From assembly GCA_965207445.1 (NCBI GenBank), contig CBDBLX010000002.1:1975849-2039848 (forward strand): a stretch of DNA of 64,000 bases. The letters run 5' to 3'. The notes below the pieces were generated by a model, which saw nothing but the letters and a program-made list of their open reading frames with translations, was not told the DNA's origin and did not search any database. The DNA comes from Nitrosopumilus sp. Its GTDB lineage: Archaea > Thermoproteota > Nitrososphaeria > Nitrososphaerales > Nitrosopumilaceae. The position numbers and the translations under genes were made by a program. How positions within the stretch are numbered: position 1 is the first letter of the stretch; every line of letters starts with the position of its first letter. Shown here in pieces: positions 2,373-5,073 of this stretch.

Positions 2373-2525
2373 TATCCCTCCTGTGCGTTTTATTTTTGGA
2401 TATTTAAAGAAACGACGTTGGGCTCAAAAAGTGGCAAGTCGACGTTATGACATACGGTGACTAATCAGGTGTGTCCTGCTGTAACGCCTCGTTTTACAAC
2501 AGAATACATGATAACATCCCTCGAT

Positions 2526-2643
2526 ATCGTATAATGATGAATCAACCCCTAGTGGTTTATGGGACACGATCCCTTGCAACAGAATGGGGCAATTCAAGCT
2601 GCCGTATAATTGGGCTGCGAGCCCCGATAGGAGTATGCAGCTT
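2526..2643 (+). ncRNA. Candidate IS110 bridge-RNA-like structured RNA
   Basis: Two stem/internal-loop/hairpin units directly upstream of an IS110 recombinase remnant (see findings). Confidence 0.45.
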
Positions 2644-2685
2644 CTGTTTCATCAAATACATCCAAAAGGAGGTGAGAGAAAAAGG

Positions 2686-2891
2686 ATGAAGACATACATT
2701 GGAATCGACATTGGAAAGAAAAATGTGATTACTGCATAGTTGGAAGTAGAGGTAAGACTCTTGAACGTGAACAATACAATAACAACAGAGAGGATGCAAA
2801 GCAATTTGCAAATCAAATATTGAAAAAATATGGTACGAACAACCAGTGCACAACAGCATGCGAAACTACTGACGTGGCGACAAAATACTAG
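2686..2891 (+). mobile_element. IS110-family recombinase/transposase N-terminal remnant (frameshifted, truncated)
   Basis: SD GGAGGTGA at 2668-2675, then MKTYIGIDIGKK, a frameshift in an A-run, then CDYCIVGSRGKTLEREQYNNNREDAKQFANQILKKYGTNNQCTTACETT. GIDxxK and ACE(S/T)T are the D and E motifs of the DEDD RuvC-like domain. Not in the ORF track. Confidence 0.8.
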
Positions 2892-2991
2892 GTACGTGTC
2901 CGGATTGACTGCAACGGTTCAAATCTGTATTAAATTACCACCAACCGCGTTTGCAAGAGTCATTGAGAACATTTTTTCTCATCACAACACA

Positions 2992-5073
2992 CTATTGTAC
3001 AACAATACCAAGATCATCTTGTATCTCTTTGATTGCTCTGATTCCGTATATGTCTCGAACCTGTTGCATGTGCAGTGACTCTTTGAGTATCTTGACACCT
3101 ACACTCTTCTTTATTGTATCATACACGTCTGCAAATCGCACCTCCCATCTATCTGCACAATCAAACATTTTACTCAATGCCCATCTTTTCACATCTTGTG
3201 GTAAATCGTTTACTCTGTTTGACATTACATCTGCTACATGATTTACCGTTGTTTGGCCACCCTTTGCTTCTTGTTCACTGGAATTGTCTTTTGACATTAT
3301 TGTTGTGTCTCTTTCAAAAAGTACTATGATCTCTGCTGTTCGTCTTGCCATCTCTTTTATTACTGATATGTCTCCGTACTTTGACTCTGCATTCATTCTG
3401 ATTGCAGATTGATACTCTGAGAGTTTGAGCAACCTCGTGGATTCTGTAATTGAATCTTGTGCCACCCTTCCTGTTGCACCTCTTAGATCTTGTATATGGG
3501 TATATATGTTATCTATCTTTTTGTATACATTTGTAGTATCACTCTCTTGTCTTTGCAGTGCATCTGATGTATTGTGTAATTGTTGGTTTAGTTGCTGTAT
3601 GTTATCTTTAATATCTGTCTTTAATGTTGCCATGTCATCTTGTATTGTCTTGAGTCCTTTGTCTATCAGGTCGGTTGCATCTGCTCTTTGTACAAGTGAT
3701 TGTATCTCTGAGCGCATCTGCTTAATCTTCTCAGATATGGTCTGATATGCAACAATAGTTGACTTTGTTGTTGATTCATGTTTTGATACAATTTCGTTGA
3801 TTTGCGCTTGTAGTAAATCTGCATCTTGATTCATCTTATCCATATGTGATGTAATGTTTACTATACTATCACTTAGATTTCTTATATCCTGTGCGCCAAT
3901 GGCGCTCTGCGCAATCCCATCTACTGTGCTCGTAATCTTTTCAACTTTGTCTTGTAGTTGTTCTGCTAGAGTAGATTTAGACTCTACAATCTTGGTGAGT
4001 TCTTCTCTAAGTGACTTTATATTTACATCTGACTGTGCAATCCCATCTACTGTGCTCGTAATCTTTTCAACTTTGTCTTGTAGTTGTTCTGCTAGAGTAG
4101 ATTTAGACTCTACAATCTTGGTGAGTTCTTCTCTAAGTGACTTTATATCTACATCTGACTGTGTAATTTTTCCAACCGCATTTTTGATCTTTTCAATATC
4201 ATTTCTCAGTATATTTATTGTAGAACCTGATTGAGTCACATCAGTCATCTTTGATATCTCTGATCTCAGTGCGTCAATCTCTGCACTAGTTCCTGCAGCA
4301 GACGCTGATCGTGCAGCAACTATCTTTATCTCTTTTCTCACCGCATCTACTGCTTGTGAGAGGTTTGCTATTGCATCTGTACTCTCTTTGATCGTTTTCA
4401 CACCATCGCTGATCTTTTTTGTGATTGTCTTTGTGTTAGATGAGTTCTGTGCTTTTACATTTGTAGTAGATAATGCGGCAACGTCTTTTATCTGTTCTTG
4501 AAACTCAAGTACACGTTTTTCGAGTTTTTTGATTGCCTTTGATTGACCTCCGATCTCCTCTAGTCCAGAGAATAACCCTTGCGTCTCTTTCTTTAAATTT
4601 GATATCTGACGGGATTGTTTTTGAATCTGCAATAGTACTGCTGCTAGTGACTCAGACATGCCACTTATCGATGACATTCTCTTTTGATTGCCAGCAAATG
4701 TCTTTGAGATTGATTTTATCTCATTACGTAACTCTTCATTTAACTCCGTAATAGAGTTTATTTTCGATAGTACCTCAGGTGTTATTGTCTCTGTCTTTTG
4801 TGCTTGTTTTGTATTTTTTGTTTTTGTGGGCTTGCTGTGTTTTTTTGTCAAATCTTTATTTTTTTCTTGTGGTGTGTTTTTTTTATTATCTTGTTTTATT
4901 TTACTAGACTTGTTTTTTGTTGTCGCATTTATTCTTGTCTTTTTTGTTGTAGATGTTTGTGCAGTTGCATGTTTTGCATCATTTTTATTTTTGGCTGTAT
5001 TTGATGTACTCTTTTTCACTATCACTCGTGTTGTCATGATCTGTATTTTCAATTTGATTTTAAAAACATGCAC
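2992..5073 (-). CDS. Long coiled-coil protein with Lys/Thr-rich N-terminus and conserved thaumarchaeal C-terminal domain
   Basis: 693-aa ORF with heptad-like composition. C-terminal SEYQSAIRMNAESKYG...CADRWEVRF...RDIYGIRA resembles a conserved Nitrosopumilaceae protein. Confidence 0.8.
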   Translation of the reverse strand: MHVFKIKLKIQIMTTRVIVKKSTSNTAKNKNDAKHATAQTSTTKKTRINATTKNKSSKIKQDNKKNTPQEKNKDLTKKHSKPTKTKNTKQAQKTETITPEVLSKINSITELNEELRNEIKSISKTFAGNQKRMSSISGMSESLAAVLLQIQKQSRQISNLKKETQGLFSGLEEIGGQSKAIKKLEKRVLEFQEQIKDVAALSTTNVKAQNSSNTKTITKKISDGVKTIKESTDAIANLSQAVDAVRKEIKIVAARSASAAGTSAEIDALRSEISKMTDVTQSGSTINILRNDIEKIKNAVGKITQSDVDIKSLREELTKIVESKSTLAEQLQDKVEKITSTVDGIAQSDVNIKSLREELTKIVESKSTLAEQLQDKVEKITSTVDGIAQSAIGAQDIRNLSDSIVNITSHMDKMNQDADLLQAQINEIVSKHESTTKSTIVAYQTISEKIKQMRSEIQSLVQRADATDLIDKGLKTIQDDMATLKTDIKDNIQQLNQQLHNTSDALQRQESDTTNVYKKIDNIYTHIQDLRGATGRVAQDSITESTRLLKLSEYQSAIRMNAESKYGDISVIKEMARRTAEIIVLFERDTTIMSKDNSSEQEAKGGQTTVNHVADVMSNRVNDLPQDVKRWALSKMFDCADRWEVRFADVYDTIKKSVGVKILKESLHMQQVRDIYGIRAIKEIQDDLGIVVQ
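3911..4163. repeat. Near-perfect 126-bp in-frame tandem duplication (42 aa)
   Basis: Copies start at 3911 and 4037. IKSLREELTKIVESKSTLAEQLQDKVEKITSTVDGIAQS occurs twice. Confidence 0.95.

What the first reader, a model, noticed from the sequence alone, without database searches (positions are those of the whole stretch)
2470..2901. Archaeal IS110 remnant with an apparently intact bridge-RNA-like non-coding end
Seen: ~215 nt of non-coding DNA precede a frameshifted IS110 recombinase 5' fragment. It folds into two consecutive stem/internal-loop/hairpin units. Unit 1: ATCGT(2526-30)/ACGAT(2566-70), loop strands ATAATG/GGGAC, inner stem ATGAATCA/TGGTTTAT. Unit 2: AAGCTGC(2596-2602)/GCAGCTT(2637-43), loop strands around GTATAATT/CGATAGGAGTAT, inner hairpin GGGCT-GCG-AGCCC. 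Both units carry the same CGTATAAT on their 5' arm (2528-35, 2603-10). GGACAC(G) in unit 1 is complementary to GTGTCC on both sides of the remnant (2471-76, 2896-2901). Established: IS110 elements encode bridge RNAs with target- and donor-binding loops in their non-coding ends. Inference: this is a thaumarchaeal bridge RNA whose recombinase has decayed, possibly usable in trans.
Basis: partly seen in the sequence, partly recalled or inferred. Interest (0 to 1): 0.75.

Follow-up and report, generated by a model that had tools for sequence, protein, structure and literature searches.

The report
Archaeal bridge RNA in broken transposon
This is the surviving front end of a broken archaeal jumping gene: its guide-RNA gene is intact and spells out the DNA next to the insertion, a real archaeal example of the known "bridge RNA" class with an uncommon layout, but nothing shows that this copy still works.

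Summary
Window 2503-2871 is the left end and frameshifted 5' CDS of an IS110-family element, 74% identical to three full-length copies in the genome. Across 34 homologues an outer stem (2536-2653) encloses two loops with strong covariation (96% paired). Unit 1 is not conserved (45% paired, equal to shuffles); the true target loop is 2546-2589. Its arms match the insertion flanks family-wide (4.5/6 vs 1.8 and 4.1/6 vs 1.8 shuffled); here TTGCAAC-AG faces the flank TTACAAC-AG. The GTGTCC 'targets' are coincidental: one is outside the element, the other inside an IS6-like end. Layout: IS1111-type subterminal repeats and guide order, but an upstream RNA as in IS110-group elements. A sibling's guide spells IS6-like terminal repeats, where it sits. 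Use in trans is untested: the right end, with its putative TATA box, is missing and no RNA data were listed. New variant of a known kind; interest 0.4.

The parts
2494..2500 (+). Left half of the insertion target (TTACAAC); host DNA read by the 3' arm of the target loop (TTGCAAC; 6/7 plus a G-T wobble)
   Evidence: 0.45% of AG sites in contig C2 match the guide at 6/7 or better
2501..2502 (+). Core dinucleotide AG (CT on the other strand)
   Evidence: AG is duplicated at both ends of full copies A, B, C; among 76 rows, 5 have AG and 69 have TG in the flank and both loops, 2 are discordant
2503..2685 (+). Left non-coding end of the IS110-family element (183 nt)
   Evidence: homology to full copies starts here; model R1 hit at 2503-2667 (this copy is in the training set)
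2508..2520 (+). Subterminal inverted repeat, 5 nt (7 with the core) inside the left end
   Evidence: 13-bp perfect complement to two orphan right ends of the same subfamily at C2:842194 and C2:1590188
2536..2653 (+). Conserved bridge RNA body: outer stem 2536-2544/2645-2653 closing a three-way junction with two loop domains
   Evidence: RNAalifold consensus of 34 sequences; 8 of 9 outer-stem pairs change on both sides
2546..2589 (+). Target-binding loop: CCCC 2546-49/GGGG 2586-89; 5' guide AGTGGTTTA 2551-59 (complement of the right target half, predicts AACCACT); hairpin GGGA-CACGA-TCCC 2561-73; 3' guide TTGCAAC-AG 2574-82 (left target half plus core)
2596..2643 (+).
2668..2675 (+). Shine-Dalgarno-like GGAGGTGA
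   Evidence: sequence; recurs in the homologues
2686..2871 (+). 5' fragment of the DEDD recombinase gene (~62 codons, first D and E of DEDD present), frameshifted at 2719-2723 and cut at 2871
   Evidence: junction spanned by sample contigs
2872..2959 (+). Last 88 bp of an unrelated ~1.87-kb IS6-like element, lacking its terminal AACC; it stops at ...TTTGCAAG-AG, the position at which sibling F is inserted in another copy
   Evidence: DDE_Tnp_IS240 over its cut-off; NF033587 IS6 at 61 bits, under its cut-off of 125

Best explanation
The stretch is the decayed left third of an RNA-guided IS110-family insertion sequence of ammonia-oxidising archaea. SHOWN by comparison: the left end encodes a conserved RNA with a variable target loop and a conserved donor loop. 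In each loop the 3' arm reads like the DNA left of the core and the 5' arm is complementary to the DNA right of the core (gene direction). That is the IS1111-type order, and the ends carry IS1111-type subterminal repeats (7 nt left, 3 nt right), yet the RNA lies upstream of the gene. INFERRED from IS621 and ISEc11: the recombinase binds the RNA, the element forms a circle joining right end, core and left end, and the RNA pairs with circle junction and target to insert it at the core. INFERRED from sequence: a TATA-like box 86-89 nt inside the right end would drive the RNA and mRNA across the junction once the circle closes. The subfamily (this copy, sibling F, two orphan right ends) was aimed at IS6-like terminal repeats; this copy's guide differs at the base next to the core and matches its own non-IS6 flank. 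The copy then lost a base in the CDS and everything past codon ~62. It is most likely an inert fossil with an undamaged RNA gene.
For: Three full-length copies in the same genome, 74-76% identical over 315-384 nt, with the duplicated core AG. Structure: 96.4% of cells paired vs 81.5% shuffled, 18 of 26 pairs change on both sides, 0 of 500 shuffles as high, slid controls 31-47%. Target loop 3' arm vs left flank: 4.52 of 6 vs 1.83 (sd 0.17) over 46 distinct guides; opposite-strand control 1.48 vs 1.43. 5' arm vs complement of the right flank: 4.05 of 6 vs 1.77 over 21 guides; control 1.52 vs 1.58. Donor loop 5' arm vs left end: 3.75 of 5 vs 2.82 over 20 pairs. Copies within single genomes differ in their guides in step with their flanks (L052 vs L085, L036 vs L064, L040 vs L069, A/B vs C). 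F (77 of 82 nt identical) reads TTGCAAG/ACTGGTT and sits after TTTGCAAG in an IS6-like repeat; TGCAAGAGAACC occurs 17 times in the genome. The orphan right ends are followed by AACC or GAGAACC. TATA-like box at 86-89 nt in 21 of 43 right ends and in both orphan ends. Guide order and end geometry as described for IS1111 (PMC11187229), opposite to IS621 (PMC11208160).
Against: No RNA or biochemical evidence for any member. This copy's own right flank is lost, so its 5' target guide cannot be checked directly. In the AG-core copies A-C the 5' target guide fits only with a one-base shift, and poorly for A and C. The donor 5' arm fails in some members (L018, L020-22: 2-3 of 5). The donor 3' arm test has only 4 distinct guides and is partly circular, because right ends were found by pattern. 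Rows are kin and were picked by pattern (76 rows from 136 candidates; 44 missed, 16 duplicates), so the shuffle p-values overstate. 22 of 43 right ends lack the TATA-like box.
Confidence: 0.85

Rival explanations
1. The RNA gene is still expressed by read-through and loaded in trans by the intact recombinase of copies A/B, adding a second target specificity.
For: All helices are intact, with one non-standard pair. The donor guides fit A/B ends (3' arm identical, 5' arm 4/5). Two uninterrupted 364-aa genes are present; B keeps G-L-x-P-x-x-x-x-S-G, A has R at the conserved G. IS621 RNA works in trans and is made weakly by read-through (PMC11208160; PMC13626964).
Against: The right end with the putative promoter is absent, and both neighbouring genes run on the minus strand. 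The proteins are only 62% identical over 52 aa. The sequence is recent enough (77 of 82 nt to F) that an intact fold needs no selection. No insertion of an A/B-type element at a W-type target was seen among the left ends listed.
Confidence: 0.15
2. 2503-2959 moved as one 457-bp non-autonomous unit: the IS6-like end served as a surrogate right end (its tip GCAAG-AG resembles ATAGG-AG), and the unit was inserted by bridge recombination at TTACAAC-AG-TCATT.
For: The IS6-like end is cut exactly at the core position used by sibling F. It is the only one of 39 listed ends that continues with a letter other than A. The donor 3' arm could pair with it at 6 of 7 positions (4 Watson-Crick, 2 wobble; read from sequence). 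Modular mini-circles and junction-to-target transfer are reported for other IS110s (PMC12288879 abstract; bioRxiv 2025.10.25.684509 section 8).
Against: The 5' target guide predicts AACCACT, not TCATTGA; it fits only with a two-base shift and three wobbles. The IS6-like end has no subterminal repeat. No empty site was found: no joint in the sample contigs, and relatives are too distant or differ in gene order. No reciprocal junction lies beside the usual neighbour gene.
Confidence: 0.12
3. The reader's fold (unit 1 pairing 2526-2570, GGACAC guiding to GTGTCC) is the functional one.
For: The helices can be drawn in this one sequence.
Against: Not conserved, less stable, and neither GTGTCC is an element flank.
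Confidence: 0.02

Closest known systems
IS621 / ISCro4 bridge RNA and recombinase (IS110 group; Durrant 2024 PMC11208160, sections 5 and 6 and passages read; PDB 8wt6, 9t56)
   Same: DEDD plus Transposase_20 recombinase; RNA in a long left end upstream of the gene; variable target loop first, conserved donor loop second; two-base core (CT on the guide-defined strand).
   Different: Guide arms are in the opposite order relative to the gene: in IS621 the 5' arm pairs with the bottom strand. Subterminal repeats are often 8-13 bp rather than 2-3. Both loops sit inside one outer stem rather than behind a 5' stem-loop. Protein is remote (74-80 bits on the family profile). Putative TATA box rather than a sigma-70 promoter.
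IS1111-family seekRNA elements ISEc11, ISKpn4, ISPa11 (Siddiquee 2024 PMC11187229, abstract, section 6 and passages read); IS4321/IS5075
   Same: Subterminal repeats 7 nt from the left and 3 nt from the right end; top-strand complement before bottom-strand match; targeting another element's terminal repeat, as the title of Partridge and Hall 2003 states for IS4321 (seen only in reference lists).
   Different: RNA upstream, not downstream. Protein outside the IS4321/ISKpn2/ISShdy1 clade (68-77 bits). Simple internal donor loop. Repeats imperfect in many members.
Exceptions noted by Siddiquee 2024: ISMtsp17 (upstream non-coding region), ISHvo10 and ISAcp5 (long regions on both sides)
   Same: Upstream or double non-coding region together with IS1111-like features; a haloarchaeal plasmid element (L193) scores highest among the outside references (215 bits) and shows similar ends and a flank-matching 3' arm.
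   Different: The passages read do not map their guides. I did not have their sequences, so identity with this clade was not tested.

Membership tests
IS110 family (broad) | DEDD_Tnp_IS110 plus Transposase_20 recombinase with conserved D, E, D, D and S | tested here: met
   Full sibling 97 and 70 bits, NF033542 227 bits; D8, E60, D99, D102, S265 invariant. The window fragment alone is under the Pfam cut-off (14 bits) but scores 81.9 bits on the family profile.
IS110 family (broad) | Short core at both ends, no terminal inverted repeats | tested here: met
   AG at both ends of A, B, C; TG in most relatives.
Bridge RNA | Two internal loops in a covarying structure in a non-coding end | tested here: met
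Bridge RNA | Target-loop arms match both target halves | tested here: met
   Family-wide; in the window copy only the left half can be checked (6/7).
Bridge RNA | Donor-loop arms match both element ends | tested here: met
   5' arm 3.75/5 vs 2.82; 3' arm 7/7 but only 4 guide types and partly circular.
Bridge RNA | Expressed, bound by the recombinase, required for recombination | not testable with these tools
   Needs RNA data or a bench assay.
IS110 group in the narrow sense (IS621, ISEc21) | Long non-coding region upstream of the gene | tested here: met
   183 nt left; about 125 nt right in A-C.
IS110 group in the narrow sense (IS621, ISEc21) | Bottom-strand guide first; subterminal repeat absent or 2-3 bp | tested here: not met
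   Order reversed (with controls); repeats of 8-9 bp or more in 16 of 33 elements and 13 bp for this subfamily.
IS1111 group | Subterminal repeats at 7 and 3 nt; top-strand complement first | tested here: met
   definition from PMC11187229.
IS1111 group | Non-coding RNA downstream of the gene | tested here: not met
   The RNA is upstream in all 76 rows.
IS1111 group | Transposase related over its full length to IS1111-type proteins | tested here: not met
   21-25% identity to IS4321, IS5075, ISKpn2; separate clades, each with support 100. The tree has few references, lacks IS621 and includes one wrongly translated row, so deep branching is unresolved.
Active or autonomous element (this copy) | Intact gene and both ends | tested here: not met
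   Frameshift, truncation at 2871, no right end.

The most novel reading that the evidence does not exclude
A widespread Nitrososphaerota clade of bridge recombinases, distinct from both the IS621-like and core IS1111 proteins, combines IS1111-type ends and guide order with an upstream RNA that is fired from an archaeal TATA box across the circle junction. It re-aims its guides between near-identical copies within one genome. In this genome one subfamily parasitised IS6-like terminal repeats, and the window copy is a guide-carrying mini-element that travelled using an IS6-like end as a surrogate right end and can lend its guide to the intact recombinase in trans.
Probability: 0.12. Interest if true: 0.7.

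Novelty: new variant of a known kind. Interest (0 to 1): 0.4.

Why it matters
No archaeal bridge RNA with mapped guides turned up in four literature searches or in the passages read. Large surveys may hold the clade in supplements I did not open (Durrant's Supplementary Table 5; the 86 models of bioRxiv 2026.10.21.760802). The mapped family gives 46 natural target guides with their flanks, an intact recombinase in the same genome (copy B), and a layout between the two textbook groups. That bears on how the RNA moved between ends and on how guides are re-aimed in nature. The window copy itself is probably only a fossil.

Tried and rejected
Rfam: one chance CRISPR-repeat hit, under its gathering score. 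The single-sequence fold is not significant, and the free minimum-energy fold differs from the consensus by only 0.6 kcal/mol, so conservation, not energy, carries the structure. First parse of guides caught only 11 rows through a pattern error and was redone. The donor 5'-arm test was out of register (0.38) and was redone. Sequencing runs: no RNA holder listed; four holders from one sample, probably the source. Sigma-70 scan: 1 site vs 1.7 expected, and not apt for archaea. Microhomology at the 2871/2872 junction (idea in my notebook): rejected, because the two sides share no letters before the joint. Inversion by bridge recombination with a reciprocal junction beside the usual neighbour gene: none found. 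Empty site in 120 genomes of the genus: not recoverable. Plasmid searches gave only remote proteins, about 31% identity or less among listed rows. Alignment A2 used 34 of 46 non-redundant ends; 12 (L018, L020, L022, L072, L092, L103, L121, L132, L134, L136, L141, L144) were left out, mostly for long insertions or near-duplication.

Full report
Verdict. The window holds a real bridge-RNA gene at the front of a broken IS110-family element. The family has IS1111-type ends and guide order with an upstream RNA. Function in trans is untested.

1. What is in the sequence. The quoted strings are present. A CDS starting at 2686 shifts frame in the A run at 2719-2723. The part after the break hits PF01548 weakly (14 bits); read through with X it scores 81.9 bits on a profile of seven relatives. 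BLAST against the genome gives three full-length relatives at 74-76% identity (A C2:1276k, B C2:2064k, C C2:1166k) and a closer 92-nt sibling F at C2:2066028. A and B have uninterrupted 364-aa genes; C is broken. From 2872 the window switches to the last 88 bp of a 1.87-kb element present in about 18 further copies. Its 436-aa protein is IS6-like: DDE_Tnp_IS240 over cut-off, NF033587 under cut-off. Contigs from the sample span this junction, though they probably come from the source sample.

2. Ends. The full copies begin after ...GCAT-AG or ...GTAT-AG and end with TTATCATAGG-AG, so AG is the core. By alignment the window element starts at 2503, after TTACAAC-AG. A subterminal repeat starts 5 nt in (7 with the core) on the left and ends 3 nt from the right. 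Two orphan 128-bp right ends elsewhere in the genome complement this copy's repeat over 13 bp. Neither GTGTCC is a flank: 2471-76 is host DNA 25 bp upstream, and 2896-2901 is inside the IS6-like end.

3. Homologues and structure. Searches gave 6 loci in named genomes, all Nitrosopumilaceae or Thaumarchaeota, matches in 27 of 301 genomes of the family (further copies) and 53 metagenome loci. Of 136 candidate loci, 76 distinct left ends could be parsed; 44 were missed, mostly truncated or divergent, and 16 were duplicates. An alignment of 34 of 46 non-redundant ends folds into an outer stem (2536-44/2645-53) enclosing two stem/internal-loop/hairpin domains. 96.4% of cells pair, 18 of 26 pairs change on both sides, and none of 500 shuffles or the slid controls comes close. 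The CGTATAAT repeat is absent from the homologues.

4. Guides. First loop (2546-2589): the six bases before the core in its 3' arm equal the left flank at 4.52 of 6 (46 distinct guides; shuffled 1.83, maximum 2.54 in 20,000). Its 5' arm is complementary to the right flank at 4.05 of 6 (21 guides from 33 elements with a checked right end; shuffled 1.77). Opposite-strand controls are at chance. The first base of the core changes together in the flank and both loops (5 AG rows, 69 TG, 2 discordant). Kinship and pattern-based selection inflate the significance. Within-genome pairs whose guides differ in step with their flanks are hard to explain otherwise. Against a tidy picture: copies A-C need a one-base shift on the 5' target arm, and L018 and L020-22 fit the donor 5' arm badly.

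5. This copy. Its 3' target arm TTGCAAC-AG faces TTACAAC-AG; 0.45% of AG sites in the contig match as well. Its 5' arm predicts AACCACT, but its right flank is lost. Sibling F (77 of 82 nt identical) reads TTGCAAG and ACTGGTT, which spells the IS6-like terminal repeat TTGCAAG-AG-AACC (17 exact 12-mers in the genome), and F sits at that position. Both orphan right ends are followed by AACC or GAGAACC. So the subfamily targeted IS6-like ends, and the window copy differs at the base next to the core in step with its own flank.

6. Mechanism. Shown: structure, guide/flank and guide/end correspondence, end geometry. Inferred from IS621 and ISEc11 (PMC11208160 sections 5 and 6; PMC11187229): RNA binding, circle formation and guided insertion at the core. 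Inferred from sequence: a TATA-like GCTATAAA lies 86-89 nt inside the right end in 21 of 43 right ends and 88 nt inside both orphan ends; reading it as an archaeal promoter rests on recalled consensus. It would transcribe the RNA only after the ends join. The window copy lacks that end, which argues for a fossil. Read-through expression and trans action are documented for IS621 (PMC13626964 section 5 and passages), and this copy's donor guides fit A and B, so trans use is not excluded (about 0.15).

7. An oddity. The IS6-like end beside the remnant stops exactly at the core position that F uses. It is the only one of 39 listed ends to continue with a letter other than A. A 457-bp unit moved with a surrogate right end would explain this, but the 5' guide does not fit the DNA that follows except in a shifted register, and no empty site or reciprocal junction was found. 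I give it about 0.12.

8. Comparison. Works like: IS621 bridge recombination. Membership: IS110 family and bridge RNA, met by sequence. Narrow IS110 group not met (guide order, repeat length). IS1111 group not met (RNA upstream; protein 21-25% identical and in a separate clade). The family profile scores IS621 and ISCro4 at 74-80 bits, IS1111-type references at 68-77, and a haloarchaeal element at 215. The tree lacks IS621 and contains one junk row (L053), so only the two well-supported clades are used. Siddiquee et al. list a few elements with upstream or double non-coding regions (ISMtsp17, ISHvo10, ISAcp5), so the layout has precedent. Four searches and passages of bioRxiv 2026.10.21.760802 (section 8 and search passages) showed no mapped thaumarchaeal example; supplements were not opened and may hold one. 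PMC12288879 was seen as abstract and outline only, and bioRxiv 2025.10.25.684509 as abstract and section 8. Earlier AI notes of this scan report an archaeal case and a reversed-order case in other genomes; I did not check them and they are not support.

9. Scores. Novelty: new variant of a known kind. Interest 0.4. Boldest reading not excluded (guide-carrying mini-element with a surrogate end, active in trans, in a third clade): probability 0.12, interest 0.7.

Noticed in passing
window 2654-2764 and 1870-1992 (runs X3, X4): A minor contig (depth 4-5 against 10-15) carries several substitutions and has no frameshift in the A run at 2719-2723, so a second strain or copy with an open frame there co-occurs. 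It is only 112 nt long, so whether it is full length is unknown.
   Followed up: no
alignment A2, columns 71-85 and 131-147; L052 vs L085: The inner hairpins of the target and donor loops resemble each other within an element (6.2 of 8 vs 4.9 shuffled) and change together between close copies. This hints at duplication or gene conversion between the loops, though kinship inflates the figure.
   Followed up: partly
G000:C2:1088787-1088977 (L162:388-578), 1502333-1501955 (L163), 326129-326214, 1629835-1629703, 530256-530226: Further left-end or RNA fragments of the family. L162 is a whole RNA-like region (72.5 bits) with no recombinase gene behind it. The genome is littered with half elements.
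   Followed up: partly
G000:C2:2063178 (copy B right flank) and C2:1089438: Copy B is inserted in the terminal repeat of yet another multi-copy element (GCATAG-TGATTTCATTAAAG), and its guides spell that site: a second case of one IS aimed at another's end.
   Followed up: partly
L018, L020-L022, L092, L093, L103: Some members carry an extra hairpin or long insertion inside the target loop's inner stem, and some have donor 5' guides that do not fit their own left end.
   Followed up: no
L003-L006 (G000:C2:1750k, 1189k, 1284k, 1401k): A second, unrelated IS110 family (about 410 aa, 25% identical) with its long non-coding region downstream of the gene; model R1 does not hit it.
   Followed up: no
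L193 (NZ_CP024046.1:149128-151147): A haloarchaeal plasmid IS110 has the same right-end tip (CATAGG-TG), a 14-bp subterminal repeat and an upstream region that repeats its left flank; model R1 does not detect it.
   Followed up: partly
window 2960-5073 and G000:C2:1903246-1904703: In 5 of the 7 relatives inspected the 693-aa coiled-coil gene is convergent with a membrane gene (a ~480-aa glycosyltransferase-like ORF or a fragment of it). Here that gene lies 74 kb away on the same strand, so the remnant sits at a rearrangement breakpoint.
   Followed up: partly
window 3902-4160: A tandem duplication of about 126 bp (42 codons) inside the 693-aa gene, seen in the sequence and translation.
   Followed up: no
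G000:C2, more than 100 places (e.g. 1590382-1590300): An 82-bp MITE-like repeat with ends TAACCGTTCAACC...GGTTGAACGGTTA is very abundant and often abuts IS fragments.
   Followed up: no
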